40,574 bases of DNA from an uncultured Candidatus Saccharibacteria bacterium (GTDB lineage: Bacteria; Patescibacteriota; Minisyncoccia; Phycocordibacterales; JAKAEA01). Under the pieces are notes generated by a model that made no database searches, had not been told where the DNA came from, and saw only the letters and a program-made list of their open reading frames with translations. Position 1 is the first letter of the stretch. Each line of letters starts with the position of its first letter. This document shows positions 98 to 40,494 of this stretch, piece by piece. The position numbers and the translations under genes were made by a program. The stretch covers positions 1-40,574 of the forward strand of contig CAYXSG010000002.1 in the NCBI GenBank assembly GCA_964467325.1. The letters run 5' to 3'.

Positions 98-1555
98 TTA
101 CATTATACCCGAAGCCGCTTCAAACTGTTTACCGATTGTGAACAGCGCGTCTTCCCTGCCTGACGGCGCCGTGAACTGAATGCCGAGCGGTAAAGCTTTG
201 CCTTCTCTTTTGGCAAAACCAGACGGAATGGAAATCGCCGGCAAGCTCGTAATATTGGCTGAGACCGTGAAAATATCGGCGAGATACATGGCGAGCGGGT
301 CTGAAGATTTTTCGCCGATTTTGAAAGCTGGAATTGGCGAGGTCGGCGTCAAAATCAAATCCACTTTTTTGAAGGCATTTTCAAAATCCTGCCGAAGTAA
401 GTTGCGGACGACGTTGGCTTTGTTGTAGTACGCGTCGTAGTAGCCGGTGGAAAGCACGTACGTACCAAGAATAATTCGACGGCGGACTTCGGTCCCAAAA
501 CCAGCGCGGCGCGTTTCCAAATAATCGTCCAGCAAATTCTTGCCGTCTTTGTGCAAGCCGTATTTCACGCCGTCAAAACGCGCGAGGTTGGATGACACTT
601 CCGCCGGCATGAGCACGTAGTAAACCGCGAGCGCGTAATCAATGTTTGGCAATTTAATATCCACAATTTCATGGCCGAGCTGCTTGAGTTTTTCCAAAGA
701 CGCTTTGAAATTCGCCATCACATCTTCATCCACGCCTTTGGCCATGAAATCATATGGCACCCCTATTCGCATTTTCCCCTCCCCCATCTCCTCTTTTTCC
801 AAAGAGGAGTGGCGAGTCTTCGAGCCGAGGTGTTCGCTACTGGTCGAATCCATCCTGTCCCAAACCCTAATCGCCTTAAAAATTATCTCAGCATCCTCCA
901 CTGTCTTTGTAATTGGTCCGATTTGATCCAAAGAAGAAGCCATGGCCATTAAGCCCGAGCGCGAAACTGCGCCGTATGTCGGCTTGAGTCCAACCAAACC
1001 GCATAAGCTGGCCGGCTGACGAATGGAACCGCCAGTGTCGGAACCAAGCGCTGCGAGCGCGCCACCCATCGCAACAGCCGCCGCCGAACCGCCGGAAGAA
1101 CCGCCCGCAACGCGCGTCGTATCAAAAGGATTTTTCACCACGCCAAACGCCGAGTTTTCGGTTGAACCGCCCATGGCAAATTCGTCCATGTTGGTGCGCC
1201 CAAGGAAAACCGGCTCGGATTTTTTCAGTTTGGCAATCACAGTCGCGTCATAAGTCGCTTTGTAATTTTCGAGCATCTTGGACGCCGACGAAGCAACTCG
1301 GCCTTTGATTAAAATATTGTCTTTAATCGCAAGCGGAATGCCGGTCAGCATGTCGGCTTTACCCGCTTTGATTTTCGCATCGGCGAGCTTGGCTTGCGTG
1401 TCAATGTCGGCAAAAACTTCCAAGTAGGCATTAATTTCCGGATTGTGTTTTTCAATTTCTTTTTTGTAAGCCTGCGCGAGCTCCACAGCCGAAAAATCGC
1501 CTTTTACCAAGTGCTCATGCGCTTTTTTGATTGTAAGAGTTTTCAAATCAATCAC
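98..1555 (-). CDS. gatA: Glu/Asp-tRNA amidotransferase subunit A
   Basis: 485-aa ORF with the amidase signature (GGSSGGSAAAVA, KDNI). It overlaps the gatC stop by 4 nt and carries an in-frame repeat arm at 786-836. Confidence 0.95.
   Translation of the reverse strand: MIDLKTLTIKKAHEHLVKGDFSAVELAQAYKKEIEKHNPEINAYLEVFADIDTQAKLADAKIKAGKADMLTGIPLAIKDNILIKGRVASSASKMLENYKATYDATVIAKLKKSEPVFLGRTNMDEFAMGGSTENSAFGVVKNPFDTTRVAGGSSGGSAAAVAMGGALAALGSDTGGSIRQPASLCGLVGLKPTYGAVSRSGLMAMASSLDQIGPITKTVEDAEIIFKAIRVWDRMDSTSSEHLGSKTRHSSLEKEEMGEGKMRIGVPYDFMAKGVDEDVMANFKASLEKLKQLGHEIVDIKLPNIDYALAVYYVLMPAEVSSNLARFDGVKYGLHKDGKNLLDDYLETRRAGFGTEVRRRIILGTYVLSTGYYDAYYNKANVVRNLLRQDFENAFKKVDLILTPTSPIPAFKIGEKSSDPLAMYLADIFTVSANITSLPAISIPSGFAKREGKALPLGIQFTAPSGREDALFTIGKQFEAASGIM
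786..836. repeat. single arm of the palindromic element family, in frame inside gatA
   Basis: Perfect hairpin CTCCTCTTT-TTCC-AAAGAGGAG followed by the tail TGGCGAGTCTTCGAGCCGAGGTGTTC. The tail matches the arm at 39151-39210 at 26/28 positions by hand alignment. Confidence 0.75.
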
Positions 1556-2463: not shown

Positions 2464-4491
<2,028 letters not shown>

Positions 4492-4501
4492 CTACCCTAA
4501 A

Positions 4502-5017
4502 TTAGTAGTTGACTTCAAGGCCACGTTCGAGACGCTGCGGATCTGCCGTGTTGCAAGTGTTATAGCCGCGCGACTCTATCCTTGTTTTCAATTCATGCGC
4601 ATTATTTAAATATTTTGAAATTGTAATGCTAGCACAGGAATGATCACTAGCATTAAAAGCATTTAGGTTAAATTTTGAAACGATCGCAGAATAACTATCA
4701 ACAGTGCCATTTGAAGTAGTAATGGTGGTGTGCGGCACATTGTTGCAGTTAAAACTTGGCACGCTTTGTGGCGCTTGCAAAACTGCCGGCAATGCACTGG
4801 CGTCCACAAAAGCTGACTCCACTTTCTGATCCGCATAGAGCGCGCATTCAAGACCAGTGTCGGCCACGTAAAGCGCTTTTTGGGAATCTTTGCCAGCCAC
4901 CGCGAGCGTAGTTTGCTTCAGCGTAATGGAAAAAAGGCTGTACGCAATGGAAATGAGCGTGGCGGCAATCATGACACCAATAAGTAGAGCAAAACCTTTG
5001 TTGTTGGATTTAGTCAT
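4502..5017 (-). CDS. minor pilin-like protein (PilX-like, no Glu at +5)
   Basis: N-terminus MTKSNNKGFALLIGVMIAATL has a short basic leader and a hydrophobic helix. It is the last gene of the minor-pilin run. Confidence 0.55.
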   Translation of the reverse strand: MTKSNNKGFALLIGVMIAATLISIAYSLFSITLKQTTLAVAGKDSQKALYVADTGLECALYADQKVESAFVDASALPAVLQAPQSVPSFNCNNVPHTTITTSNGTVDSYSAIVSKFNLNAFNASDHSCASITISKYLNNAHELKTRIESRGYNTCNTADPQRLERGLEVNY

Positions 5018-5020
5018 AGT

Positions 5021-5569
5021 TTAATGCCAATTGGTTAAGGTTTCGGTCAACACCACGCTGTTGCCCGGCCAAACCACGGTTGAAGTCACCACCGCTTCCG
5101 CGCCCGAATCATTGGGTTGGCAATCCGCCGGCAAGCAAGCAATGTTGATGGATCGGTAGAAAGTGGATGCCGGACTGTTGCCGCTGTCGTTTTTCCAAGT
5201 GTAAATGCTGCTGCCGGAATCAAAAACTTGATAGAGCTGGCATAAGCCGTTGATGCTGCCGCCCGAGCAATCACTAATTTCCTCACTAATTGGATCAATA
5301 TCAAAACCTTTTCCAAGATAGGAAGTAAAGTTGCTGAGCCAGCCGGTCTGAGCGTTTGGATCCAAAGCGCTGTTAGTGAGCGCGGTGTTGTCGCGCATAT
5401 TGCGCACGAGCTCAAGCCCTTCCGCCGCCAAAAAATACGCCGTGGCCTGATTCTTCACTTGATAAGTGAATTGAAAAGATTTTTGAGCCATACCGAAAGC
5501 CGCGCCTACCGCCACGGTCATGATGGCGATGGCGATTAATGTTTCAAGAAGGGTGAAGCCTTTTTTCAT
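5021..5569 (-). CDS. prepilin-type minor pilin
   Basis: MKKGFTLLETLIAIAIM carries the G|FTLLE cleavage/methylation motif. Confidence 0.8.
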   Translation of the reverse strand: MKKGFTLLETLIAIAIMTVAVGAAFGMAQKSFQFTYQVKNQATAYFLAAEGLELVRNMRDNTALTNSALDPNAQTGWLSNFTSYLGKGFDIDPISEEISDCSGGSINGLCQLYQVFDSGSSIYTWKNDSGNSPASTFYRSINIACLPADCQPNDSGAEAVVTSTVVWPGNSVVLTETLTNWH

Positions 5570-5577
5570 GTTGATGG

Positions 5578-6135
5578 TTATAAGTTTGCGTCAGGTAAAC
5601 GCTGCGAAATGGTGGTCTGCAAAACAAATCGGGATTGGGCCGACACGGTCAAACCCGCAGAACCGCTGACGGAAATGAAGACTCTCGGCTGACCATCCGC
5701 CGTCCCAGTGCCGAAAAGTCGAAAGCGCAAGCCGGTAATATTGACTTCCGGCGCCGTCATCGGCATGTCCACGCCATTTAGGGTCCGATAAATTGCGCCC
5801 TTACCGCTTGTTGGATCGGTTTTCAAATAATATGTCACATCACGAGTTAGAGGATTGGCATTTTCAGCGGAAGAAAAAGAAACGCCGACGGCCGGATCAC
5901 AATCCCCGCTTGATTGAACCGAGCAGCTGTAATTGGTGCCGACACGGATGACACGCGACATGTTTTCCACCGCCACATTCAGGTTGTCCATCACCGATTT
6001 GAGCCCTTGCGCTTTGAGGTTCGCATCAATCAAAGCTAGCAAGGCGCCGGTCGTAGAAACAGCAACTAAAGTAAAAATGGAGAGCGACACCATGATTTCC
6101 ACCAGAAAGTAACCTTTTTGCTTTTGCGTTTTCAT
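5578..6135 (-). CDS. prepilin-type minor pilin
   Basis: MKTQKQKGYFLVEIMVSLSIF carries a G|YFLVE motif. Confidence 0.7.
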   Translation of the reverse strand: MKTQKQKGYFLVEIMVSLSIFTLVAVSTTGALLALIDANLKAQGLKSVMDNLNVAVENMSRVIRVGTNYSCSVQSSGDCDPAVGVSFSSAENANPLTRDVTYYLKTDPTSGKGAIYRTLNGVDMPMTAPEVNITGLRFRLFGTGTADGQPRVFISVSGSAGLTVSAQSRFVLQTTISQRLPDANL

Positions 6136-6140
6136 TTTAT

Positions 6141-6749
6141 TTATTGCACGGATATTTGGCCCGTCTGCTGAACCGTGATGGTTTTTTGAGCATTCACATC
6201 TTGCTTGGAACCAATGACAATTTTCACCGCGGAAATATTGCTGCCGGAAACAGTGCCGTCGTTGGCACTCATAATGGCGTCAGGATTCGGGCGCCGGAAA
6301 GTGATGTCTAGTTTGTTGCAAGCAGTGCAATTTCCGGAACCAAAAACGTAGCACAAGCTTTTGATGTAGTAAGCGCCGCGCAGGTTGTATGTGGTGGCGA
6401 GCGACGATTCGGCGTTGATGGACGTGTCGAAAATTCCATTCCCGTAAGTGTTGTCGTGATTGTCATTGTTATCAACGAACAGCCAGTAAGTGGTTGGCGT
6501 AGCGAGATCGAAATGGATGCCGTAAGGCGTTTCAAAATTGCCGGTTGAAGTTTTGGAACTTTTCACGCTCACGCCGTATGTTTGCGCAGTGCGGATGGAA
6601 AGCGCTATGTCGTACGCCAAGTTGGTCATGATAATGCCGCTGTCAAATTTTTTGTAGTTGACTAAAATCACCGCAAGAATGAGCACCATGATAGCGATGG
6701 CGACTATGAGTTCTATGAGTGTGAAACCTAAATTAAATTTTTTCTTCAT
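6141..6749 (-). CDS. prepilin-type minor pilin
   Basis: MKKKFNLGFTLIELIVAIAIM. I prefer ATG 6749 over the track's TTG 6776 because it gives a typical short basic leader. Confidence 0.8.
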   Translation of the reverse strand: MKKKFNLGFTLIELIVAIAIMVLILAVILVNYKKFDSGIIMTNLAYDIALSIRTAQTYGVSVKSSKTSTGNFETPYGIHFDLATPTTYWLFVDNNDNHDNTYGNGIFDTSINAESSLATTYNLRGAYYIKSLCYVFGSGNCTACNKLDITFRRPNPDAIMSANDGTVSGSNISAVKIVIGSKQDVNAQKTITVQQTGQISVQ

Positions 6750-6776
6750 ATGATTTAGCGAAATCATGCTAGGCAA

Positions 6777-7592
6777 TTAAATTCCAAAAACACTGTGAAG
6801 GCTGGCCACATCAAAAGCGAAAAAATACGCGAGGGCGAAACCGAGGATGAGATACGGCGCGAACGGAATCTCGCTCTTCATTGTAAGCTTTAAACCTTTG
6901 CGTTTCAATTGACCGAAAGCCAAGAGGAAGATACTTACGAGCGCGCCAATCCAAAAAGCCATGAACACCGCCGAAACGCCAAGGCCGAGGCCGAGCATCC
7001 AGCCGATGCCGAGCGCGAGCTTGCCGTCGCCGAGACCGAGCCAGCGGCCGTCGGAAACCAGCCACAAAAGATAGAACGGCAAGAATAAAATCGGACCGGC
7101 GAGCAGAGTAAAAATAAAAATATTGAGCGGCTGAACCGGTACGAAAATTAGAACTCTGATTAAACCAAGGACCGCGAAAGTATAGACTGCGCCGTTGGGA
7201 ATGATTTTGTGGCGCAAATCATAAACGCCAATTACAATAAGCAAACACCAAGCCACCACCGCGAGCACTGCTTCAAGAAGCAAAACTGGCGTCAAAGTTT
7301 GGATCAAGCTTGAAAAGTGGAAAAACAGCGCAACAAAAACCAAACTAGTAGAAAGTTCCACTAAAGGATATTGCCAAGAAAGTTTCGCTCGGCAATGCCG
7401 ACACATGCCTTTTTGCAAAACGAAGCTCAAGAGTGGCACCAGTTCATACCAAACTAAAGGCTTGCCGCAAGTCATGCATGCTGAGCGGCCGGTAACTACG
7501 CCGCGGCCGGTGTTGTAGCGGAAAATCACCACATTTAGAAAACTGCCGATGATCAAACCCAGACAGAAAACAAAAATGGCAATGAGAAACAT
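6777..7592 (-). CDS. pilD: prepilin peptidase (A24 family)
   Basis: Has CxxC...CxxC, multiple TM helices and the catalytic Asp motifs (VYDLRHK, GLGDGKL). ATG 7592 overlaps the upstream pilin stop as TAATG, and the track's N-terminal extension is non-homologous. Confidence 0.9.
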   Translation of the reverse strand: MFLIAIFVFCLGLIIGSFLNVVIFRYNTGRGVVTGRSACMTCGKPLVWYELVPLLSFVLQKGMCRHCRAKLSWQYPLVELSTSLVFVALFFHFSSLIQTLTPVLLLEAVLAVVAWCLLIVIGVYDLRHKIIPNGAVYTFAVLGLIRVLIFVPVQPLNIFIFTLLAGPILFLPFYLLWLVSDGRWLGLGDGKLALGIGWMLGLGLGVSAVFMAFWIGALVSIFLLAFGQLKRKGLKLTMKSEIPFAPYLILGFALAYFFAFDVASLHSVFGI

Positions 7593-8113
7593 TATGGTTT
7601 TGAAACTCGGTAAGTGTAGCCGGCAGGATTCAAGCCGGAATTCGCCGTCCAGTTGGTAATCGCGCAAGTGTTGGTCAAATCCACATTGGCATTTTGACTT
7701 TCCAAGTTTGCACCCAAACAGTATGAAGAGCCATCTGCTGAAGAATAGCCGTAAACATAATTTGCAGAGTTAAGCGGATCAGTTAGTGTTGACGGCAAAA
7801 AACCAAACTTTGTTAATTTATCAGCCATGTCAGCATAAGTGCCCGGTGAGCTTGCAGTATTTGGGCAACCGTAGCCTGAGTTTGCGTCGCCAGTTAAGGC
7901 ATCGCCAGCGCCAGTTGGATAATTGCCACATCGGTTGAGATAGGCCGCGAGCGCGAGCTGAATGTTTGAAATATCGGAAATTCTTTTCTGATCGCGCGAG
8001 CGCGCTTTCGCCGTCCCTAAGTTGGCCAAGACAATGCCGGAAAGAATCCCAATAATTGCAATTACCACCATGAGCTCAATCAACGTGAACCCGTTTTTGG
8101 ATTTTAAAGTCAT
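7592..8113 (-). CDS. type IV pilin
   Basis: [24 protein letters not shown] is a class III signal peptide. The start is taken at ATG 8113. Confidence 0.85.
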
Positions 8114-8148
8114 GAGGATATTATAACATATCAACTTACTCACAAATC

Positions 8149-8269
8149 ATAGCACCTCGGCTCGCCGACTCGCCACTCCTCTTTGTCTAAAGAGGAGATA
8201 CTTGCGCGCAAGTTCTTTTCCCCTCTTCAGACGAAGAGGGGTGCCATTCTTATGGCGGGGTGTTCTGAA
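8149..8269. mobile_element. full-length palindromic MITE/REP-like element with a degenerate left end
   Basis: Two inverted arms, each with a hairpin (CTCCTCTTT-GTCT-AAAGAGGAG and CCCCTCTTC-AGAC-GAAGAGGGG). The right end is GGTGTTCTG. The element ends 5 nt from the stop of pilin 8274-8723. Confidence 0.75.
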
Positions 8270-8273
8270 AAAC

Positions 8274-8723
8274 TTAAGGAGTTGGCACGACGCACTGTAC
8301 GCCGTCGTTGTAGTTGCCTGGGTCGGTACCAGCTGTCAAAGTTGTACCAATTTCACCAGAAAAACTAGTACTATCAATACAGAAATATTGACCGTCGCCC
8401 AAGAGATCATAGGCTGTGTAAGACACGTAGTCAGGAGAAACCGTACACACCGGAGGATTACCAGTTTGATTCTGAACAGCAGAAAGTAAATTCATAACAG
8501 TTGGATCAGAGCACGCGTCTTGATATGAGTTTCTAGAATTATCACTATTATAACTTTCCATATTAGACCGCAAACTTGTCATGCTTGCTTTTGCACTAGC
8601 ATCTTTAGCTCCAGCACGAGAACTACCCAATGACGCCAAAACTACAGAAGCTAATATACCAATAATAGCAATAACAACGAGCAATTCTATTAAGGTGAAG
8701 CCTTTTTTATTTATCCTCATCAT
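8274..8723 (-). CDS. type IV pilin
   Basis: [24 protein letters not shown] is a class III signal peptide. Confidence 0.85.
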   Translation of the reverse strand: MMRINKKGFTLIELLVVIAIIGILASVVLASLGSSRAGAKDASAKASMTSLRSNMESYNSDNSRNSYQDACSDPTVMNLLSAVQNQTGNPPVCTVSPDYVSYTAYDLLGDGQYFCIDSTSFSGEIGTTLTAGTDPGNYNDGVQCVVPTP

Positions 8724-8744
8724 TATTTATTATATATTAAATTA

Positions 8745-9248
8745 TTATAGACAAGCTGTGGCCGCGGCAAGTATTGCTACACCCTCTTGTTTACTCTGTC
8801 CTTTACTATCAACACACCACCACCCACCATTTTTAAGCGGCGCCTCCATAACCCATGCAGTCACTGGCGCACCAGCTGTATCGTGGCAAGTAACATGGGT
8901 TGCGTCACCCGCCAACGCTGGAGGATTTGCAGAACTTATTTGACTAGCGGAAACTGCTGAAGAATTCAAAACTCCTTTCATTATACCCGGTCCGGCAACT
9001 CCACCAAAACCACCAGAAGTTACTGCTGCCGCGCAAACACCACCGTAAGAGTTGCTGTTTGCTCCGGCATAAATTTCCCCCTGTGCTCGTGCGCCAGAAA
9101 GTTGAGCTTGGGTTGCAGCGTCAGAACCCTTATTGCGAGCTGTACCGAGTGAAGCCAGCACAACTGCCGACAAGATACCAATGATTGCAATTACGACTAG
9201 TAATTCAATCAATGTAAAACCTTTATGCTTATTAATTCCTAGTTTCAT
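8745..9248 (-). CDS. type IV pilin (major-pilin-like paralogue 2)
   Basis: [26 protein letters not shown]. Its C-terminus ...SKQE..A..ATACL is shared with 9371-9853. Confidence 0.9.
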   Translation of the reverse strand: MKLGINKHKGFTLIELLVVIAIIGILSAVVLASLGTARNKGSDAATQAQLSGARAQGEIYAGANSNSYGGVCAAAVTSGGFGGVAGPGIMKGVLNSSAVSASQISSANPPALAGDATHVTCHDTAGAPVTAWVMEAPLKNGGWWCVDSKGQSKQEGVAILAAATACL

Positions 9249-9310
9249 AATGAATACATTATATATTATAAAAATAAAAGAAAGATTGAGTTATCCACTC
9301 ACAAAAACAA

Positions 9311-9330
9311 AAACCACCCTCAGGTGGTTT
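9311..9330 (-). terminator. rho-independent terminator after pilin 9371-9853
   Basis: Stem AAACCACC/GGTGGTTT with a 4-nt loop. On the minus strand it is followed by TTTTGTTTTTGT. Confidence 0.6.
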
Positions 9331-9370
9331 TTGTTTCAAGAGAATCTTGAGAAAAGAATCCAGCTATAAC

Positions 9371-9853
9371 TTATAGACAAGCTGTGGCAGGAGCAAGCAT
9401 GGCTGCGGCTTCTTGCTTGCTTTGTCCAGAACTATCAGCACACCAGAACGAGCCTGAAACACTCTTTAGAGGAGCTTCCAAAACCCAAGCACTCGTGGCT
9501 GCTGCTGCAGTATCATGACAAGTAACTTTTGCTGCCGCTCCAGCAAGTGCTGGTGGATTAGCTGAACTAACTTGAACAGTACCACCAGAAGAAGCAGCTG
9601 CGCCAGCTGTAATAGCAGCAAAACCATTGTTTGCGGCTGTAGCAGCACAAACGCCGCCGTAAGAATTATTGTTCGCTCCAGCATAAATCTCACCTTGAGC
9701 ACGAGCGCCATCGAGTTGGGCTTGTGTCGCTGCGTCAGCACCCTTTGAGCGAGCCGTACCCAAGCTTGCTAATACCACTGCTGACAAGATGCCGATGATG
9801 GCGATGACGACGAGAAGTTCGATGAGAGTGAAACCTTTATTTAGTCTTTTCAT
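9371..9853 (-). CDS. type IV pilin (major-pilin-like paralogue 1)
   Basis: [23 protein letters not shown]. It is the first pilin after pilC and has its own terminator. Confidence 0.9.
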   Translation of the reverse strand: MKRLNKGFTLIELLVVIAIIGILSAVVLASLGTARSKGADAATQAQLDGARAQGEIYAGANNNSYGGVCAATAANNGFAAITAGAAASSGGTVQVSSANPPALAGAAAKVTCHDTAAAATSAWVLEAPLKSVSGSFWCADSSGQSKQEAAAMLAPATACL

Positions 9854-9998
9854 TATTTTATAAATTATTAACTATTAATTTTTTGACTTATATCAATCGA
9901 CCTAACCGCATAAGCGGTAGTCGCTATATGCCTATGCGTCCTATTATATCTCCATTTGGCTCGTTGCGTGCAAGAAATATTGTGGATAACTTTGAAAT

Positions 9999-10114
9999 CA
10001 GAACACCCCCAGCCCCCTCTTTGATTAAAGAGGGGGGAAGAGTAGAAATAAATTAGCAAGTCGGTTCTCCTCTTTAGACAAAGAGGAGTGGCCTTCTGAG
10101 GCCGAGGTGTTCTG
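9999..10114. mobile_element. full-length palindromic MITE/REP-like element
   Basis: Terminal inverted repeats CAGAACACCCC...GAGGTGTTCTG and two hairpin arms. It is flanked by the 3-bp direct repeat AAT (9996-9998 and 10115-10117) and abuts the pilC stop. Confidence 0.8.
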
Positions 10115-10116
10115 AA

Positions 10117-11322
10117 TTAAATTGAGTTCGCGACGTTGTAAATTGGAATCAAAACGGAGGCGAGAAGCACGCCGACGCCGAGACCGAGAAGGACAATCAT
10201 GACTGGTTCAATGAGGCCGACGAGCGTGTCCACGGCGTTGATAACTTCGCGCTGATAAAACTTGGAAAGCGTTTTCAAAATGTTGCCGAGCTCGCCGGTT
10301 TCTTCTCCAACTTTAATCATTTGAATCATGATACTGGGAATTTCGTGGAACTGGACAAGCGAATCGGAAAGCGAACTACCACCTTTTACCGACTCCACCG
10401 CTTTGCCTAAAATGCGTTCGTAAACTGCGCTGCCGACCACCGACTGCGTCACTTCCAACGCTTTAATCATGGGAATCCCGGAGATGAGCATGGTGTTCAT
10501 GTTGTCGGCGATGCGTGCGAGGTAGAGCTTGCGGAAAAGATTGCCGACGTACGGCGTGGTGATTTTCAAATCATCAAACCAATTCCGGCCGCCTTCGGTG
10601 CGGATGTATCGGACAATGAAAAATCCAGCGATGATGAGACCAACAATCAGGAACAAGCCGTAACTGACAAAGAAACTCGATAGGCCAATGACAATTTGAG
10701 TGTAAATCGGGATTGGCTGGCCGGAATCGGTGATGATGGAAGCGATTTTCGGGATGACCACCGTAAACATAAGAATCATAACCGCCATGAAAACGACAAT
10801 GATGAAAGTTGGGTAAACTAGCGCGTTCTTGGCTTTGGAAGTGACTTCATAGCTACGATCAAGATAGTCGGCGAGATAGTTGAAAATTTCGTCCAGCTTA
10901 CCCGACTCTTCGCCGGAACGCACCATGTTGACATAAAAATTGGAGAAAATTTGCGGATGTTTTTCCAGCGCTTTGGAAATGGAACTGCCAGCTTGCAAAT
11001 CGGTCGCCACTTCGGAAAGTGCATCTCTGAAAATTGGATTTTCCGACTCCGCGCCAAGCAAACGAAAAACGCGAAGCGCCGAAACTTGCGCCGCAAAAAG
11101 AATGGCCATTTGCCGAGAAAGAATGACGACGTCTTTGTTTTTTATGTGATTGAAAAAAGAAATGTTCCGGTCAAAAACCGAGCCTTCTTTCGGCGTATCA
11201 ATTTTGGAAATGATGAGGCCACGGCGCTGCAGCGAGTTGATGGCAATGTCCACATTGATGGCTTCAATTTCGCCCTCGCGCATCACTCCGGTATTGTCTA
11301 TGGCTTGATATTTGAAAATCAT
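10117..11322 (-). CDS. pilC: type IV pilus platform protein (GspF/PilC family)
   Basis: 401 aa with duplicated T2SS-F domains and 3 TM segments. It lies next to pilT and pilB. Confidence 0.95.
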   Translation of the reverse strand: MIFKYQAIDNTGVMREGEIEAINVDIAINSLQRRGLIISKIDTPKEGSVFDRNISFFNHIKNKDVVILSRQMAILFAAQVSALRVFRLLGAESENPIFRDALSEVATDLQAGSSISKALEKHPQIFSNFYVNMVRSGEESGKLDEIFNYLADYLDRSYEVTSKAKNALVYPTFIIVVFMAVMILMFTVVIPKIASIITDSGQPIPIYTQIVIGLSSFFVSYGLFLIVGLIIAGFFIVRYIRTEGGRNWFDDLKITTPYVGNLFRKLYLARIADNMNTMLISGIPMIKALEVTQSVVGSAVYERILGKAVESVKGGSSLSDSLVQFHEIPSIMIQMIKVGEETGELGNILKTLSKFYQREVINAVDTLVGLIEPVMIVLLGLGVGVLLASVLIPIYNVANSI

Positions 11323-11331
11323 GAGGACTAG

Positions 11332-12402
11332 TTAAATTAATTTTTCCAGAATTTTTGGATTGAGCGAATAGTGGTAAGCATTTTCAATGGTGATGTCACC
11401 CGAACGCACGAGCTCGGCAAGCGAGCGATTCATGTCAATCATGCCAAACTGAGAACCAGTTTCGATGACGGTGTTGATTTCGTGCGTGCGGCGCTCGCGG
11501 ATGAGGTTCGCCACAGCGCTGTTATTAATGAGCAATTCGTAAGCCGGAATCAAGCCGCCGGACACGCGCGGAATGAGGCGTTGAGAAAAAATACCAGTGA
11601 GCGAACCCGCAAGCTGGACGCGAATTTGCGACTGCTGGTCGGCCGGAAAGGAGTCGATGATGCGCTCAATGGTCTGAGCGGCGTTGTTGGTGTGCAAAGT
11701 GGAAAGCACGAGGTGGCCAGTTTCGGCGGCGGTGACAGCCGTAGAAATTGTATTGAGGCCGCGCATCTCGCCAATTAAAGCCACGTTGATGTCTTCGCGG
11801 AAAATCGAAATGAGCGCGGAATGAAAATCTTCGGTATCAATCCCCACTTCCCGCTGATCAATGATGGATTTTTTGGAAACATATTCATATTCAATCGGAT
11901 CTTCAATGGTAAGAATGTGCTCTAAGCGCTCGTTGTTTATAAGCTCAATCATGGATGCGAGCGTGGTGGACTTGCCTTGGCCGACCGGTCCGACCACGAG
12001 GAAAAAGCCTTGGCGATAGCGCGTGAAGGTTTCCAAAATCGGCGGCAAGTTCAGGTCGGTGAGCGATTTGATTTGGCGCGGAATGAAACGCAGAGCGATA
12101 GAAATCATGCCTTGGTGAAAAAAACAATTACCTCTGAACCGGACGTCAAACTTGGCGTGAGCGTAAGAAAAATCTATTTCCTTTTTTTCCAAAAAGCGCT
12201 TCTTAAACTCAGGCACCATGAGGCAGTCCAAAATGCCGTTCATGTCTTCTTTGGTGAGCAGGTCAATTTTAAGGAGCGGCACCAGAAATCCAGAAACGCG
12301 AATTATCGGATTGCGTTTTTCGGACAAGTGTAAATCGGATGCGCCTTCTTTGATGACAATGGAAACCAATTCGTCTACGAAACTTTTATAATCTTTGTTC
12401 AT
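11332..12402 (-). CDS. pilT: twitching-motility retraction ATPase
   Basis: 356 aa with Walker A GPVGQGKSTT and the PilT-type Asp/His boxes (IGEMRG, TGHLVLSTLHTNNA). Confidence 0.95.
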   Translation of the reverse strand: MNKDYKSFVDELVSIVIKEGASDLHLSEKRNPIIRVSGFLVPLLKIDLLTKEDMNGILDCLMVPEFKKRFLEKKEIDFSYAHAKFDVRFRGNCFFHQGMISIALRFIPRQIKSLTDLNLPPILETFTRYRQGFFLVVGPVGQGKSTTLASMIELINNERLEHILTIEDPIEYEYVSKKSIIDQREVGIDTEDFHSALISIFREDINVALIGEMRGLNTISTAVTAAETGHLVLSTLHTNNAAQTIERIIDSFPADQQSQIRVQLAGSLTGIFSQRLIPRVSGGLIPAYELLINNSAVANLIRERRTHEINTVIETGSQFGMIDMNRSLAELVRSGDITIENAYHYSLNPKILEKLI

Positions 12403-12794
12403 GATTTTTTTACCGCTTCGTGGATACGCTTCACTTCGTTGATAACTTCGGATGGAATGGTGGTGGCTTTCACGATGTAGCCGTCGGCTTTGAGCGCTTT
12501 GGCTTTTTCAATGTCGGCGCTGTCGCTCTGGTTGGTGAGCATCACCACCGTGGCATTTTGTGCGAAATTTTTATTCCGGATTTCCTGCAAAAGCTCCAAG
12601 CCGTCCATGCCCGGCATGACCACGTCCAAAAGCAAAAGACTCGGCGAAAAACCCTCAGACAGTTTTTTCAAAGCGTCGGGCGTGTTTTGGCACGTTACCA
12701 CTTCAAAACCTTCGTTGGAAAATTTGAGAGAATACATATTGAGCAGGAAGGTGTCGTCGTCAACGATGAGAATTTTCTGCTTGATGTTGTCCAT
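12399..12794 (-). CDS. receiver-only response regulator (CheY/PilH-like)
   Basis: 131 aa. ILIVDDD...LLLLDVVMPGMDG...KADGYIVK is a REC domain with no output domain. It overlaps the pilT start by 4 nt. Confidence 0.9.
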   Translation of the reverse strand: MDNIKQKILIVDDDTFLLNMYSLKFSNEGFEVVTCQNTPDALKKLSEGFSPSLLLLDVVMPGMDGLELLQEIRNKNFAQNATVVMLTNQSDSADIEKAKALKADGYIVKATTIPSEVINEVKRIHEAVKKS

Positions 12795-12819
12795 AATATG
12801 CTAGCAATTATAGCACGCC

Positions 12820-14553
12820 TCAAAACTTATTAACTTCTTCAAAAGCAATTTCGCCGCGGAACGCTTTGAGCATCGCATCTTCTTTCATGGTCAACATGCC
12901 TTTGCCTCTTACAACTTTATTGATTTCAAATTCGGTCGGATTTTTGAGAATAACCTGCTCAATTTCCCTATCCATTTCAAACATTTCAAAAACCGCCACG
13001 CGACCGCGCGTGCCGGCCGGACAATCGTCGGTTGGCATAACTTCTTTCACAGAGTTGGGAATGACAATTTCTTTCCGATATTTTTCCGGCAAATCCTGAA
13101 GCTGTTTTTCTATAAACAGCCGCATGCTGCCTTCGAGCGGAACGTCTTTGCCGCCGCCGGGCGGTAAAAGCGGTGAAAGACGCTGGGCCATGGCGAGCAC
13201 GAGAGTCGGCGCAATGAGGTAAGGGTCAACGCCCATGTCGATGAGACGCGGAATAACACCGACCGCGTTGTTGGTGTGGATGGTAGAAAGCACGAGGTGG
13301 CCGGTGAGCGATGCTTGAATGGCAAGCTGCGCCGTTTCTTTATCGCGGATCTCGCCAACCATTATGATGTTTGGATCTTGACGAAGTGTGGTGCGCAAGC
13401 CGTTCGCAAAAGTGTAGCCGATTTCCGGCCGGACTTGCGATTGGTTTACGCCGTCAATGTTATATTCAATCGGATCTTCCAAAGACAAAACGTTTTTCTG
13501 CTCACGATCCACAATATTTAAAAGCGAATAAAGCGTCGTGGATTTACCGGAACCGGTCGGACCGGAAATGAGCACCAAACCGTACGGCCGCTTGACCACG
13601 CCGCGGACCAGCTCAAGATTTCTCGGCGTAAAACCGATTTCTTCCAACTTTTTCACGCCCTTTTCCTGATCCAAAATACGCATCACGATTTTCTCGCCGT
13701 AATAAGTTGGGAAAGTGGAAACGCGGAAATCGATTTTTCGATTGTCGATTTTTGCGGAGAAACGGCCGTCTTGTGGTTTGCGCTTTTCATCCAAACGCAT
13801 GTTGGACAAAATCTTGATGCGGGCAGTGAGCGATGAAAGCACTTTTGACGGCAAGACAAGACTAGTGTTCAAAAGGCCGTCCACGCGAAATCGAACGCGA
13901 ATATTGCCACTCAACGGCTCAATGTGAATGTCGGAAGCATTGCCTTCGGTGGCATAACGCAAAATGGTAGCGACAATTTTCGTCACCGGCGCATCTTCTA
14001 CGATTTTCGTCTCAACTTTTTTCCCACCGTTGTCAATCTGCTGTTCCAAATCGTCTTTATATTCCGACTCGCCTTTCTCGCCCTTCATCTGAATATCAAT
14101 ATCGGAAAGCGCGCTGGTCACTTCAGCAGAAAGACCTTTGTAAATGCCTAAAACTTTTTCAAAATCTTCCTGAGAAATCAAGAAAATTTTGTACGGCATA
14201 TTAATTTTCGAGGAAATGAAGTTGAGCGCATCGCGAGCTTCAATGTTGTCGGGGTCCACGAGACCAACTTCCAGCACACTATCTTTCACATCCAAAGGCA
14301 CGAAGCGGTAATACACCGCCGATTCTTCTGGAATGTATTCCAAAACGGAATAAGACACGTCGTCATTGCCGACAATGCGAATCGGCACTTGCATGATTTC
14401 ACCCTTGATTTTCAAAATATCCTTGCCGGCCAAACCGCGCTTTTGGAGCACCGCTTCCAAGCTTTCGCCGCTCGTTTGGACTTCTTTTTCAATCGCGGAA
14501 ATTTCTTTCTCCGCTATGAGCTGTTTGCGAGCCAGAGCTTCAAGGAGTTTCAT
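12820..14553 (-). CDS. pilB: type IV pilus assembly ATPase (GspE/PilB family)
   Basis: 577 aa with an N-terminal GSPII_E_N-like domain, Walker A GPTGSGKSTT and the motif TGHLVLSTIHTNNA. Confidence 0.95.
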   Translation of the reverse strand: MKLLEALARKQLIAEKEISAIEKEVQTSGESLEAVLQKRGLAGKDILKIKGEIMQVPIRIVGNDDVSYSVLEYIPEESAVYYRFVPLDVKDSVLEVGLVDPDNIEARDALNFISSKINMPYKIFLISQEDFEKVLGIYKGLSAEVTSALSDIDIQMKGEKGESEYKDDLEQQIDNGGKKVETKIVEDAPVTKIVATILRYATEGNASDIHIEPLSGNIRVRFRVDGLLNTSLVLPSKVLSSLTARIKILSNMRLDEKRKPQDGRFSAKIDNRKIDFRVSTFPTYYGEKIVMRILDQEKGVKKLEEIGFTPRNLELVRGVVKRPYGLVLISGPTGSGKSTTLYSLLNIVDREQKNVLSLEDPIEYNIDGVNQSQVRPEIGYTFANGLRTTLRQDPNIIMVGEIRDKETAQLAIQASLTGHLVLSTIHTNNAVGVIPRLIDMGVDPYLIAPTLVLAMAQRLSPLLPPGGGKDVPLEGSMRLFIEKQLQDLPEKYRKEIVIPNSVKEVMPTDDCPAGTRGRVAVFEMFEMDREIEQVILKNPTEFEINKVVRGKGMLTMKEDAMLKAFRGEIAFEEVNKF

Positions 14554-14572
14554 AGGAATTTTTTTGGATTAA

Positions 14573-14941: not shown

Positions 14942-14945
14942 AAAT

Positions 14946-15506: not shown

Positions 15507-15511
15507 ATGAT

Positions 15512-16156: not shown

Positions 16157-16163
16157 TTCTACA

Positions 16164-16172
16164 ATGATAGCA
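16164..16172 (-). promoter_or_regulatory. extended -10 (TGcTATCAT) 7 nt before ATG 16156
   Basis: An internal promoter in the 58-nt pilM-pilN gap, with no Shine-Dalgarno. Confidence 0.45.
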
Positions 16173-16214
16173 CATAGAAACTCAAAGCAACACGAACTTT
16201 TCCCCTTTCTTAGG

Positions 16215-23339: not shown

Positions 23340-23342
23340 CCT

Positions 23343-39046: not shown

Positions 39047-39074
39047 TAAAAACATCTCCCGCCCGCCAAAAATT

Positions 39075-39210
39075 CAGAACACCTCGACCTCAGAAGGCCA
39101 CTCCTCTTTATCAAAAGAGGAGATAAGAACTTACACAAGAGTTTGTTAGCAAGTCGGAATCTCCCCCTTAGACAAAGGGGAGTGGCGAGTCTGCGAGCCG
39201 AGGGGTTCTG
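39075..39210. mobile_element. full-length palindromic MITE/REP-like element
   Basis: Terminal inverted repeats CAGAACACCTCG...CGAGGGGTTCTG and two hairpin arms. It is flanked by the 3-bp direct repeat ATT (39072-39074 and 39211-39213) and lies 3 nt from the secY stop. Confidence 0.8.
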
Positions 39211-39213
39211 ATT

Positions 39214-40494
39214 TTAGTACTCCCTCATGGAAAGCTGAGCTTCGGTTTTTTTGATGAGGTCGATGACCACGGAGACGACGATGAGCAGAGCGGTGCCGCC
39301 GATGGTGAACGAAGCGATGCCAGAGAAAGCGCGAACAATGAGCGGCAGAATGGCGATGACGCCGAGAAAGAGCGCGCCGAACGCAGTGAGGCGCGTCAAG
39401 ATTTTAGAAACGTAAATGGCAGTCGACTGGCCCGGTCGGACGCCTGGAATGAATGCGCCGTTTTTCTGAAGATTTTCAGACATCTGGTTTGGATCAAAAG
39501 TGACAGCCGTGTAAAAATAAGTGAAAGCGAACACGAAGATGAAATAGAGTGCGGCGTAAATCCAACCGTTTGGATTCGTGGCAGCAAGAACCCACTGCGA
39601 AATGCCGGCGAGCAGAACGCTTGAGGCAAATCTCTTGGCGATGAATTGGAAAATGATTTGCGGGAAGACGAGAATGGAAAGTGCGAAGATAATTGGAATG
39701 ACGCCGGACTGATTCAAACGGAGCGGAATGTAGGTGGAAACGCCGCCGTAAATTTTGTTGCCGCGCACGCGCTTGGCGTACGTGACCGGAATCGGTCGTT
39801 CAGCTTCGGTAATAACCACAACGGCGTAAGTGACCACGAGAATGCCAATTATCAGCGCTAGATAAACCGGGATTTGCGAAGGATCAAAAGAATAGAGCGT
39901 CTGGCTGGCAGAAGTTGGCAATCTGGAAACAATACCAGCGAAAATAATGAGCGACGCGCCGTTGCCCACGCCGAATTCGCTGATGCGTTCGCCGAGCCAA
40001 ACCAGAAACACCGAGCCCGCGGTAATTAAACTCAAATTGCGAATCGTTTCAAACGCTGTGAGCGAGCTGATGACGCCTTGATTTTGAAGCAAAATTAGAA
40101 AGCTCCAGCCTTGAATGATTGCGAGTGGCACGGTGAGCATTCTGGAATACTGGCCAAACTTTTTGCGACCATATTCCCCTTCTTCCTGATACATGGCTTT
40201 GAGCCGCGGCGAAAGCAGAGTGGCGAGCTGCATGATGATGGTAGAAGTGATGTATGGACCAACGCCGAGCATGACGAGCGAAAGTTGAGAAAGACTGCCG
40301 CCGGTAAAAATATTCAAAAGACCGAGAAGTTGGTTATTAGCAAAAAATGCGTGAAGCTCAGCCGTATCAATACCTGGCACCGGAATCGCCGCAAGCAATC
40401 TGAAAGCCGCCAAAATCCCGAGCGTGATTAAAACTCGCTTGCGCAAAGTTGTGTCCGCAAAAACCAACCGCATTTTTTCTAAGAAAGCGTTCAT
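39214..40494 (-). CDS. secY: preprotein translocase subunit SecY
   Basis: 426 aa with 10 TM helices and typical SecY motifs. Its ATG overlaps the rplO TGA. Confidence 0.97.
   Translation of the reverse strand: MNAFLEKMRLVFADTTLRKRVLITLGILAAFRLLAAIPVPGIDTAELHAFFANNQLLGLLNIFTGGSLSQLSLVMLGVGPYITSTIIMQLATLLSPRLKAMYQEEGEYGRKKFGQYSRMLTVPLAIIQGWSFLILLQNQGVISSLTAFETIRNLSLITAGSVFLVWLGERISEFGVGNGASLIIFAGIVSRLPTSASQTLYSFDPSQIPVYLALIIGILVVTYAVVVITEAERPIPVTYAKRVRGNKIYGGVSTYIPLRLNQSGVIPIIFALSILVFPQIIFQFIAKRFASSVLLAGISQWVLAATNPNGWIYAALYFIFVFAFTYFYTAVTFDPNQMSENLQKNGAFIPGVRPGQSTAIYVSKILTRLTAFGALFLGVIAILPLIVRAFSGIASFTIGGTALLIVVSVVIDLIKKTEAQLSMREY

What the first reader, a model, noticed from the sequence alone, without database searches (positions are those of the whole stretch)
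786..836. Second in-frame arm inside gatA, partly read in a different frame from the ligA copy
The perfect hairpin CTCCTCTTT-TTCC-AAAGAGGAG and the tail TGGCGAGTCTTCGAGCCGAGGTGTTC lie inside gatA. The tail matches the 39151-39210 arm at 26/28 positions. The segment encodes SEHLGSKTRHSSLEKEEM, in the variable segment between the conserved DSTS motif and the (M)RIGVP motif.

The hairpin core is read in the same frame as in ligA, giving H-(S/P)-S-L-x-K-E. A 2-nt length difference puts the terminal part in another frame: EHLGSKTR here versus NTPAADG in ligA.

Both genic copies have the same orientation relative to the coding strand.
Basis: seen in the sequence. Interest (0 to 1): 0.62.

Follow-up and report, generated by a model that had tools for sequence, protein, structure and literature searches.

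The report
Triplex-type DNA repeat inside gatA
A 50-base copy of a dispersed hairpin repeat sits in frame inside the essential gatA gene of a Patescibacteria (CPR) bacterium, where it is read as a floppy surface loop. The repeat belongs to a cross-phylum family whose sequence is built to fold one DNA strand into a triple helix, so it combines two known oddities: selfish DNA inside genes and intrastrand-triplex repeats.

Summary
Window 786-836 is one 'arm' of a repeat family with 8 arms in this 40-kb window (covariance-model score 61 bits, E about 1e-19). It lies in frame and antisense inside gatA (98-1555, minus strand) and encodes SEHLGSKTRHSSLEKEEM (aa 240-257).

- **Orthologues.** The closest GatA orthologues (79% identity) and a syntenic relative lack the arm. 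Their loops are 14-15 residues, against 24 here.
- **Assembly.** Independent per-run assemblies span the arm, so it is not an assembly error.
- **Structure.** AlphaFold2 puts the insert in a low-confidence coil.
- **Orientation.** The antisense orientation is largely explained by stop codons in the sense frames of typical arms.
- **Architecture (new here).** The arm reads 5'-pyrimidine strand, loop, purine strand, a second covarying hairpin, then a G/T tail. The tail is the mirror image of the purine strand. In 57 arms from several phyla, 98% of triads obey the antiparallel purine-motif triplex rule, against about 50% in control registers. This is the class II intrastrand-triplex type known from E. 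coli BoxC/PIT/TM elements, which are intergenic there.
- **Other genes and genomes.** Related arms sit in frame in ligA and tsaD. They also occupy the same GatA loop in at least two other lineages with DNA (one intact, one decayed) and probably a third seen only as peptide.

The closest functional analogue is the Rickettsia palindromic element. How the arms spread is unknown, and triplex formation is inferred, not shown.

The parts
98..1555 (-). gatA (Asp/Glu-tRNA amidotransferase subunit A), 485 aa, intact ORF that hosts the arm
   Evidence: Pfam Amidase 477 bits. 79% identity to annotated GatA. PDB GatA chains at E = 1e-128. AlphaFold2 pTM 0.89.
786..836 (+). Solo repeat arm, which is the finding. 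It is antisense to gatA and encodes aa 240-257, SEHLGSKTRHSSLEKEEM.
   Evidence: Covariance model 61.4 bits, E = 8.5e-20. 80-85% identical to the other full arms in the window, except 69% to the 8218 arm. Absent from the closest orthologues.
788..796 (+). Pyrimidine (Y) strand of hairpin 1, CTCCTCTTT
   Evidence: Perfect 9-bp stem. Five of nine hp1 pairs show compensatory changes across 57 arms.
801..809 (+). Purine (R) strand of hairpin 1, AAAGAGGAG. The loop TTCC is at 797-800.
811..826 (+). Hairpin 2 / linker, GGCGAGTCTTCGAGCC. It has a GGC/GCC foot, a tandem G.A/A.G, a G-C pair and a TCTT loop.
   Evidence: The same GAG..CGA core with covarying feet occurs in L019, L027, L012 and L002. Outer pairs covary.
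827..834 (+). Third-strand tail GAGGTGTT. It is the mirror of the R strand and would form G.G-C, A.A-T and T.A-T triads.
   Evidence: 8 of 9 triads here. 447 of 456 triads obey the rule across 57 arms, against 48-57% in slid or direct registers.
773..781 (-). Possible second, G/A-type third strand on the coding strand (GAGGGGAAA, 8/9), 6 nt after hairpin 1. It may belong to the element or to the ancestral loop.
   Evidence: The same 'one hairpin, two tails' layout occurs in L002 gatA, L002 ligA and L010. Boundary uncertain.
2687..2740 (+). Solo arm in ligA (2464-4482, -), in the HhH-BRCT linker at aa 581-599
   Evidence: Covariance model 66 bits. Pfam domains flank it. Arms occupy the same site in L033, L034, L002 and L035.
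8144..8271 (.). Full element (two inverted arms plus spacer) between two pilin genes
9991..10118 (.). Full element directly after the pilC stop codon. Its left arm lacks hairpin 2. The site is empty in the syntenic relative L033.
39071..39214 (.). Full element filling the secY-adk spacer.

Best explanation
Positions 786-836 are a solo arm of a dispersed, structure-constrained DNA repeat. The arm entered the gatA coding sequence at a surface loop and is tolerated because it is in frame and stop-free. It is translated as about 18 hydrophilic, disordered residues, a net gain of about 10 over the closest relatives.

The arm has the architecture of a class II purine-motif intrastrand triplex. A pyrimidine strand and a purine strand form a 9-bp hairpin. 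A second small hairpin acts as a linker. A G/T tail can then fold back antiparallel onto the purine strand. On single-stranded DNA, during replication or transcription, it would form a paper-clip triple helix.

Genic copies are found only antisense. Typical arms carry TAG or TGA in most sense frames, and the frame reading (H)-S/P-S-L-x-K-E is open.

**Shown:** family membership, in-frame insertion, absence from close orthologues, loop location, and hairpin and triad covariation.

**Inferred:** actual triplex formation, translation of the insert, and how arms spread. Spread could be by an unknown trans-acting enzyme or by recombination/gene conversion between copies.
For: **Repeat identity.**: 80-85% identity to the other full arms in the window (69% to the 8218 arm), and 47/49 to a copy elsewhere in the same metagenome.

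**Insertion.**
- Among 120 GatA orthologues the loop is 12-21 residues. The exceptions are 24 in this protein, P0005 and P0080 (whose loop is not arm-like), and 31 in P0008.
- The closest orthologues, P0002-4, have 14 residues.
- The syntenic relative L033 has the ligA arm but no gatA arm, and no covariance-model signal in its loop. L001 likewise has none.

**Not an artefact.** Independent contigs span the arm.

**Loop location.** pLDDT is about 52-56 in coil for aa 241-260, in a model with mean pLDDT 84 and pTM 0.89. In ligA the arm lies between the HHH_2 and BRCT domains.

**Structure constraint.**
- Hairpin 1 is 98.8% paired, with 5 of 9 compensatory pairs.
- The triad rule is met at 98%, against about 50% in controls. 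Tails shuffled among sequences reached at most 410 of 456, against 447 observed.
- In matches to a pattern that left the variable positions free, the associations were 17/0/0/10 and 11/0/2/14, p = 1e-7 and 6e-6.
- A perfect mirror tail lies downstream of 34% of Y/R hairpins, against 0.8% or less in controls.

**Stop codons.**

**Other in-frame antisense arms.** L002 gatA and ligA (two sites), L033 and L034 ligA, and L027 tsaD.

**Precedent.** Holder et al. 2015 (PMC4666352) showed by CD, NMR and footprinting that a class II motif of this type forms a triplex, and state that purine-motif triplexes do not form in RNA.
Against: - No transposase or RAYT gene lies in the window, and no target-site duplication is discernible, so mobility is inferred only from presence/absence and copy similarity.
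- The net length gain (10 aa) is smaller than the arm (17-21 aa), so the event was not a clean insertion. The boundary on the 773-785 side is uncertain.
- The gatA arm itself has all three sense frames open, so stop codons do not by themselves explain its orientation.
- No RNA or protein data exist.
- The second loop is 13-21 nt long and structured, unlike the 1-6-nt loops of characterised triplex motifs. The triplex has not been tested for this sequence.
- Arms in a family are related by descent, so the counts overstate the number of independent events. At least 12 distinct purine-strand/tail haplotypes do fit the rule.
Confidence: 0.82

Rival explanations
1. The insertion into the GatA loop (and the ligA linker) is ancient and vertically inherited. 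It is kept similar to the genome's other arms by gene conversion (concerted evolution) and was lost cleanly in most lineages. On this view it is not a recent, independent insertion.
For: - Arms occupy exactly the same ligA site in five lineages, with the same flanks ATTCA... and ...AAACTTGC.
- Four GatA lineages have an arm or an arm remnant in the same loop: the window, L002, L034 (decayed, 13.7 bits, E = 0.0056) and the P0005 peptide.
- The window ligA arm is closer to a paralogous intergenic arm (89%) than to the orthologous L033 arm (81%).
Against: - Insert-bearing GatAs are not monophyletic. P0008 is sister to the insert-free P0002-4 at 85% identity.
- The empty loops in L001 and L033 show no remnant (3.9 bits or less).
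- Arms at the same GatA loop in different genomes are only 51-56% identical and carry unrelated second hairpins.
- One gain would require five or more clean losses.
Confidence: 0.3
2. The genic arm is maintained by selection for a nucleic-acid function inside the gene. Examples would be a replication or transcription pause site, a recombination hotspot, or an mRNA hairpin that modulates gatA expression. On this view it is not merely tolerated selfish DNA.
For: - The genic copies keep a perfect hairpin 1 and 8/9 triads.
- ligA arms in the window, L033, L034 and L002 differ in sequence yet each fits the triad rule, at 7/8 to 9/9.
- An orthologous arm in the gatC-gatA spacer of L001 and L002 keeps hairpin 2 through compensatory changes.
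- Intergenic elements sit directly after stop codons, as REP elements do.
Against: - The L035 ligA arm and the L034 gatA arm are decayed.
- Most orthologues do without the arm.
- Maher's group found no promoter, terminator or polymerase effect of PIT elements in vivo, as summarised in PMC4666352.
- Structure retention can equally reflect youth or gene conversion.
Confidence: 0.2
3. The conserved features act in RNA (two hairpins in the transcript) and the mirror tail is not a DNA triplex.
For: Hairpins 1 and 2 fold in either strand, and full elements form long hairpins (z = -6.3 and -4.7). Intergenic copies lie in transcribed spacers of operons such as secY-adk.
Against: - No Rfam family matches.
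- A mirror (not inverted) relation cannot be Watson-Crick pairing.
- T opposite A-T pairs fits reverse-Hoogsteen T.A-T on the arm strand only. In genes, the mRNA carries the complement.
- Purine-motif triplexes are reported not to form in RNA (PMC4666352).
Confidence: 0.1
4. The similarity is due to chance, to low-complexity peptide convergence, or to an assembly chimera.
For: None found. The peptide is hydrophilic and of low complexity.
Against: - Zero matches in shuffles, and covariance-model E = 8.5e-20.
- No orthologue encodes the peptide.
- The similarity is at the nucleotide level and includes non-coding copies.
- Contigs from four independent runs reproduce the sequence.
Confidence: 0.01

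Closest known systems
Rickettsia palindromic elements (RPE; Ogata et al. 2000, as summarised in PMC10969869)
   Same: Both are short palindromic repeats dispersed in a small genome. Many copies are inserted in frame in unrelated housekeeping genes. They are read as extra peptide segments at places compatible with the fold, and the genes stay intact.
   Different: - The phylum differs (Patescibacteria and others, not Rickettsia) and there is no known sequence relation.
- Genic copies here are single arms of about 50 nt, not elements of 100-150 bp.
- The defining feature here is a hairpin plus mirror tail (triplex rule), which has not been described for RPEs.
- RPE families encode a conserved peptide. 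Here the distal half is read in different frames in different genes.
BoxC / PIT elements / TM_ECO intrastrand triplex repeats (Hoyne et al. 2000; Holder et al. 2015, PMC4666352)
   Same: Both have a class II purine-motif layout, 5'-pyrimidine block, loop, purine block, loop, reverse-Hoogsteen block-3', with 8-9-nt stems. Both are dispersed in many copies and sometimes occur as inverted pairs. Neither is linked to a known transposase.
   Different: - The sequence differs: the TM_ECO pattern has no match in the window or in the 33 fetched loci checked.
- T.A-T triads are frequent here.
- The hosts are Patescibacteria, Bacteroidota, Ignavibacteriota and Chlorobiota.
- TM_ECO is 'always intergenic' in E. 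coli, whereas these arms also sit in frame in essential genes.
REP / BIME / REPIN elements mobilised by RAYT transposases (PMC3116915, PMC3337134)
   Same: Both are short palindromes found singly or as inverted doublets with a spacer. Both sit just downstream of stop codons, show within-genome sequence populations, and leave singlets as apparent remnants.
   Different: There is no conserved GTAG or CGTC tag and no RAYT gene in the window. REPs are by definition extragenic, and they have no mirror tail.
MITEs
   Same: Full elements of 128-144 bp have inverted arms and conserved termini (TTCAGAACACC...GGTGTTCTGAA) and are non-coding on their own.
   Different: No target-site duplication and no parent insertion sequence were seen. 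Arms occur alone and, in other genomes, tail-to-tail as well as head-to-head (L007, L030). That fits a modular REP-like unit better than a transposon bounded by terminal inverted repeats.

Membership tests
Class II purine-motif intrastrand triplex motif (PIT/BoxC/TM type) | 5' homopyrimidine block paired to a downstream homopurine block across a short loop | tested here: met
   CTCCTCTTT / AAAGAGGAG with a 4-nt loop. 98.8% paired across 57 arms, with 5 compensatory pairs.
Class II purine-motif intrastrand triplex motif (PIT/BoxC/TM type) | 3' third block antiparallel (mirror) to the purine block, giving G.G-C and A/T.A-T triads | tested here: met
   GAGGTGTT against AAAGAGGAG, 8/9. 447/456 triads across the family, against about 50% in slid or direct registers. 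Fisher p = 1e-7 and 6e-6.
Class II purine-motif intrastrand triplex motif (PIT/BoxC/TM type) | Short second loop (0-10 nt in Hoyne et al.; 1-6 nt in ITxF) | tested here: not met
   The second connector is 17 nt in the gatA arm and 13-21 nt in most arms, and forms its own hairpin. A minority of arms have 2-5 nt (window 10002-10036, L002 1759-1793, L009 5722).
Class II purine-motif intrastrand triplex motif (PIT/BoxC/TM type) | Triplex actually forms (CD, NMR, footprinting) | not testable with these tools
   ViennaRNA models Watson-Crick hairpins only.
TM_ECO / BoxC sequence family | Matches CCCTCNCCC-N3-6-GGGNGAGGG-N3-GGGNGAGGG | tested here: not met
   0 matches in the window and in the 33 loci fetched at that point.
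TM_ECO / BoxC sequence family | Exclusively intergenic | tested here: not met
   Arms lie inside gatA, ligA and tsaD ORFs.
Rickettsia palindromic elements (RPE) | Palindromic repeat inserted in frame in protein-coding genes without disrupting them | tested here: met
   Intact 485-aa GatA aligned end to end with orthologues. The same holds for LigA.
Rickettsia palindromic elements (RPE) | Sequence membership in RPE-1 to RPE-10 of Rickettsia | not tested
   No RPE library is available. The phylum and architecture differ, so membership is not claimed.
REP/REPIN-RAYT | Conserved GTAG (or CGTC) tag at the foot of the palindrome | tested here: not met
   No such conserved tag in alignments A1 and A6. 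The conserved flanks are TC...GTG and GGTGTT.
REP/REPIN-RAYT | Cognate RAYT (Y1 transposase) gene in the genome | tested here: inconclusive
   None among about 40 ORFs of the window. The rest of the genome was not available.
MITE | Terminal inverted repeats | tested here: met
   Full elements at 8144-8271, 9991-10118 and 39071-39214. The gatA copy is a single arm only.
MITE | Target-site duplication and a related autonomous insertion sequence | tested here: inconclusive
   Flanks are A/T-rich with no consistent direct repeat. The empty site in L033 is too diverged to define the junctions. No insertion sequence was seen.

The most novel reading that the evidence does not exclude
These arms define an unrecognised, cross-phylum class of mobile or homing DNA. 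Its selected feature is a single-strand purine-motif triple helix with a hairpin linker. An as yet unknown enzyme would recognise this fold. It lets the element colonise the same few permissive loops of essential genes (GatA, LigA, TsaD) repeatedly in streamlined CPR genomes, and persist there, so that DNA-structure selection operates inside coding sequence.
Probability: 0.2. Interest if true: 0.85.

Novelty: new variant of a known kind. Interest (0 to 1): 0.66.

Why it matters
- **Streamlined genomes.** It shows that even the small genomes of Patescibacteria carry selfish, structure-constrained repeats inside essential translation and replication genes. [quoted passage not shown]
- **Two literatures joined.** It connects that phenomenon with intrastrand-triplex repeats (BoxC/PIT). 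It adds strong comparative evidence, in the form of three-way covariation across phyla, that the triplex fold is what evolution conserves.
- **Searches miss these arms.** Existing triplex searches that allow only short loops miss arms with a hairpin linker.
- **Annotation.** Such arms inflate loops, create lineage-specific 'insertions' in marker proteins, break assemblies at repeats, and could be mistaken for adaptive protein features.
- **Experiments.** The recurrent use of one GatA loop offers a natural map of insertion-tolerant sites.

Tried and rejected
- **Strict repeat pattern in 185,579 species genomes:** 0 hits. A relaxed pattern was needed.
- **Metagenome scan:** only 6 loci. Two are the same organism's short contigs, so no genome-wide census of this organism was possible.
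- **Peptide-level search for arm-encoded segments in all proteins:** rejected for the E-value limit and for query length.
- **Rfam:** no family at gathering thresholds. With relaxed thresholds there was only noise, including a 17-bit wcaG resemblance.
- **RNA-seq runs:** none.
- **DNA for P0005 and P0125:** not retrievable.
- **TM_ECO pattern:** absent.
- **Considered and rejected:**
  - Integron attC sites: GTTRRRY-like ends occur in some Bacteroidales arms, but there are no cassette arrays, and Patescibacteria ends read GTTCTGA.
  - DNA uptake sequences: the arms are too long and covary by structure.
  - Intrinsic terminators: there is no T-run.
  - G-quadruplex: only two G-tracts per strand.
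  - A full second arm in gatA: the covariance-model hit at 746-816 (-) draws its score from hairpin 1 alone.
Full report
**1. What is at 786-836**

The + strand reads ATCTCCTCTTTTTCCAAAGAGGAGTGGCGAGTCTTCGAGCCGAGGTGTTCG. It lies inside the 485-codon ORF 98-1555 on the minus strand.
- Pfam identifies this ORF as an Amidase (477 bits).
- It is 79% identical to proteins annotated GatA in Patescibacteria/Paceibacteria MAGs.
- It matches solved GatA chains at E = 1e-128.
- gatC (1552-1833) overlaps its start, and ligA (2464-4482) follows.

On the coding strand the segment is read as SSEHLGSKTRHSSLEKEEM (aa 239-257), between the conserved DSTS and RIGVP motifs.

**2. It is a member of a repeat family, far beyond chance**

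The repeat finder pairs the segment with 39159-39208 (84% over 50 nt) and, in inverted orientation, with 8153-8199 (89% over 47 nt). The 30-mer 806-835 recurs with 2 mismatches, against none in 100 shuffles.

A covariance model built from 27 arms (R1) finds exactly eight arms in the 40.6-kb window:
- Seven are full length at 59-70 bits. The gatA arm scores 61.4 bits, E = 8.5e-20.
- One lacks the second hairpin and scores 38 bits.

Six of the arms form three 'full elements' of two inverted arms plus a 10-35-nt spacer, at 8144-8271, 9991-10118 and 39071-39214. Each lies within a few bases of the stop codon of the upstream gene. One fills the secY-adk spacer. The gatA and ligA copies are single arms.

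**3. It is not an assembly artefact**

Logan's per-run contigs from four rhizosphere metagenomes reproduce the region.
- One contig (run X4) spans 721-874 with no difference.
- In X2 two contigs overlap within the arm.
- A further contig carries another copy, 47/49 identical, in different flanks. So the nearest relative of the gatA arm lies elsewhere in the same community.

**4. It is an insertion relative to orthologues**

Among 120 GatA orthologues the DSTS-IGVP loop is 12-21 residues, with modes at 14 and 17. The exceptions are 24 in this protein, P0005 and P0080, and 31 in P0008.
- The closest relatives, P0002-4 (79% identity), have 14 residues: IELKESGEVKQKMK.
- The syntenic relative L033 has the same order: pilus cluster, ligA, gatC, gatA. 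It has 15 residues, and its loop DNA scores 3.9 bits or less with R1. L001 behaves the same way.
- No orthologue encodes the window's peptide.

The net gain is about 10 residues, less than the 17-21 encoded by the arm. So some ancestral loop sequence was replaced, and the boundary on the 773-785 side is uncertain.

AlphaFold2 (60-sequence alignment; mean pLDDT 84, pTM 0.89) puts aa 241-260 in coil with pLDDT about 52-56, and below 50 for 245-253. This stretch lies between helix 219-229 and strand 263-266. T. maritima GatA has a 19-residue segment here, so the site is naturally variable.

**5. Frames and orientation**

The gatA and ligA arms are both antisense to their genes. Hairpin 1 is read in the same frame in both: H-S-S-L-E-K-E-E and H-P-S-L-S-K-E-G. 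Hairpin 2 is 16 nt in gatA and 14 nt in ligA, so the distal part is read as SEHLGSKTR against QNTPAADG.

Translating all eight arms in six frames shows why antisense is favoured. Typical arms carry TAG (from TTTAGAC in loop 1) and TGA (from the hairpin 2 loop TCTGA and the terminus TTCTGAA) in the sense frames. By contrast, the antisense frame giving SSLSKEE is open in seven of the eight arms.

The gatA arm itself happens to be open in all three sense frames. So for this copy, orientation is not forced by its present sequence.

**6. The architecture: a mirror tail**

Aligning arms from the window and from other genomes showed that the 3' tail covaries with hairpin 1 as a mirror image, not as a complement. 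A is replaced mostly by T:
- AAAGAGGAG goes with GAGGTGTT.
- AAAGAGGGG goes with GGGGTGTT.
- AAAGGGGAG goes with GAGGGGTT.
- AAAGGGGGG goes with GGGGGGTT.
- In a diverged subfamily, TAGGAGGGG goes with GGGGTGGT.

Read antiparallel to the purine strand, this gives G.G-C, T.A-T and A.A-T triads, which is the purine (reverse-Hoogsteen) triplex motif.

Quantitatively:
- Among 27 unique matches to a search pattern that left the four variable positions free, the two associations were 17/0/0/10 and 11/0/2/14 (Fisher p = 1e-7 and 6e-6).
- A perfect mirror tail lies downstream of 34% of all pyrimidine-loop-purine hairpins in the fetched DNA. The figure is 0.8% or less for direct-register, upstream or shuffled controls.
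- In the model-based alignment of 57 arms, 447 of 456 triads (98%) obey the rule. The figure is 48-57% when the tail is slid by 1-3 columns and 51% in the non-mirror register. In 2000 shuffles of tails among sequences, the maximum was 410.
- Hairpin 1 is 98.8% paired, with compensatory C-G to U-A changes at 5 of 9 pairs. The outer pairs of hairpin 2 also covary.
- One subfamily of hairpin 2, which includes the gatA arm, has a conserved GAG...CGA core. This would give tandem G.A pairs between covarying feet.

For the gatA arm the parts are: Y 788-796, loop 797-800, R 801-809, hairpin 2 at 811-826, and tail 827-834, with 8/9 triads. On the coding strand a G/A-type tail (GAGGGGAAA, 8/9) follows hairpin 1 after 6 nt. 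This layout is also seen in L002 and L010.

**7. This structural class is known**

Holder et al. 2015 (PMC4666352) describe intrastrand triplex motifs in bacteria. Class II is 5'-pyrimidine, purine, reverse-Hoogsteen-3'. The E. coli BoxC/PIT/TM_ECO repeat (CCCTCNCCC-N3-6-GGGNGAGGG-N3-GGGNGAGGG) forms a triplex in vitro. It is 'always located intergenically', sometimes occurs as inverted pairs, and is not linked to transposons. The authors state that purine-motif triplexes do not form in RNA.

The present family shares the class but differs in several ways:
- The sequence differs, with no TM_ECO pattern match.
- It has a 13-21-nt hairpin as the second connector, outside the 1-6-nt loops of their search.
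- It makes frequent use of T.A-T triads.
- It is found in different hosts.
- It occurs inside genes.

No Rfam family covers it. Full-text searches found no description of such repeats in Patescibacteria.

**8. Distribution**

A relaxed pattern found arms in MAGs labelled Parcubacteria, Saccharibacteria and Patescibacteria. It also found them in Ignavibacteriota, Bacteroidales, Flavobacteriaceae, Saprospiraceae and Chlorobiota, with several copies per genome in some. Two of the 24 loci look like chance matches (L017, L031). Arms occur head-to-head, tail-to-tail (L007, L030) and alone.

**9. Other genic arms, and recurrence at the same sites**

- **L002 (GCA_030154745.1).** GatA (P0008) carries a diverged arm in the same loop, with hairpin 1 CCCCTCCT/AGGAGGGG and an unrelated hairpin 2. 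LigA carries two arms, one in the same HhH-BRCT linker as the window and one just before the KxDG motif. All are antisense and in frame.
- **L034 (P0007).** There is a decayed arm in the GatA loop (13.7 bits, E = 0.0056) and an intact one in the ligA linker.
- **P0005.** The loop peptide (HPAFQAPLLSKGGK) looks arm-derived, but its DNA could not be fetched.
- **L027.** A TsaD gene carries [17 protein letters not shown], in the same two frames as gatA.

In a neighbour-joining tree of GatA without the loop, the insert-bearing proteins are not monophyletic. P0008 is sister to the insert-free P0002-4 at 85% identity.

Arms are more alike within a genome than at the same site between genomes:
- The window's gatA arm is 80-85% identical to the other full arms in the window (69% to the 8218 arm), but only 51-56% to arms in the same GatA loop elsewhere.
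- The window's ligA arm is 89% identical to an intergenic paralogue, against 81% to the orthologous L033 arm.

This pattern fits either repeated independent insertion into a few permissive or preferred sites, or old insertions homogenised by gene conversion. I favour recent gain for gatA and an older, shared origin for ligA. The ligA case rests on five lineages with the same flanks.

Between the window and L033, the ligA arms differ by a 1-nt and a 2-nt indel. These shift the frame in between (QNTPAADG against QTPRPDG) and restore it at hairpin 1. So the DNA is better conserved than the peptide.

The full element after pilC (9991-10118) is absent from the syntenic spacer of L033. That is a presence/absence difference consistent with mobility.

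**10. What is not known**

- No transposase or RAYT-like gene is in the window.
- No target-site duplication is evident.
- No RNA data are available.
- Triplex formation, translation of the insert and the mode of spread are inferences.
- The L035 ligA arm and the L034 gatA arm have decayed, which argues against universal selection for the fold in genes.

**11. Verdict**

The feature is best described as an RPE-like, in-frame, tolerated insertion of one arm of a BoxC/PIT-like intrastrand-triplex repeat. It is a new variant that combines two known kinds. Confidence in the insertion reading is about 0.8. Confidence that the mirror tail reflects a real DNA triplex is about 0.6-0.7.

Noticed in passing
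window 23267-23341 (+): tRNA-Ile with anticodon TAT (UAU). This is an uncommon way for bacteria to read AUA, which is usually decoded by a lysidine-modified CAU tRNA.
   Followed up: no
window 25770-26180 (+): tmRNA (84 bits) with predicted tag peptide ARAKVSPFFGMKDFAFAYVPA, which is long and atypical at its end.
   Followed up: no
window 34285-34896 (-): Nucleoside diphosphate kinase of 203 aa. Its Pfam NDK match is split into two stretches, so there is an internal extra segment (about aa 55-95). No repeat arm is detected there.
   Followed up: partly
window ~9897-9941; L033 ~4700-4745: A block of about 45 nt upstream of a pilin gene (ATAGGCATATAGCGACNACCGCTTATGCGGTTAGGTCGATT on the gene strand, containing the hairpin ACCGC-TTAT-GCGGT) is conserved in the syntenic relative while the surrounding spacer is not. 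It could be a promoter, operator or leader element of the pilin gene.
   Followed up: no
window 39056-39213: A full two-arm element fills the spacer between the secY stop and the adk start, inside the otherwise tightly packed secY-adk-map operon.
   Followed up: partly
L001 976-1028 and L002 2343-2395: An arm with the same hairpin 1 (CCCTCCCTT/AAGGGAGGG) sits in the gatC-gatA spacer of two genomes whose GatA is 85% identical. The hairpin 2 stems differ by compensatory changes (GACTC...GAGTC against GCCC...GGGC) around the same GAGTCTTCGAG core. In the window, gatC and gatA overlap and there is no such arm.
   Followed up: partly
L002 254-310 (ligA, aa ~85-105): A second in-frame arm lies in LigA a few residues before the adenylation motif KxDG (TPPRGLGTPPNLGGVGG). 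It is absent from the window's LigA.
   Followed up: partly
L027 1346-1393: An in-frame antisense arm lies in tsaD between the HMEGH motif and the SGGHT motif, read as [17 protein letters not shown].
   Followed up: partly
window 39118-39196 (+): Weak resemblance (17 bits, E = 0.39, below the gathering score of 42) to the Rfam wcaG RNA motif, including the ...AGUGGCGAG... stretch after a hairpin. It is probably chance.
   Followed up: no
window 4502-17327 (-): A large type IV pilus cluster: PilM, PilO-like, PilB, a response regulator, PilT, PilC, at least seven pilin-like genes with N_methyl motifs (including recent paralogues at 8274-9853), and the prepilin peptidase. A VirD4/TraG-like 925-aa ATPase lies at 34893-37670.
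   Followed up: no
Logan contigs of runs X1-X3 (not in the window): Another copy of the arm, 47/49 identical to the gatA copy, has flanks TGTAGCCAAAAAGATTTAGCACTTTCGGTC and AATCCATTTCCAATTTTCAACTTGCTCCGG. It is the closest relative of the gatA arm seen, and its genomic context is unknown.
   Followed up: no
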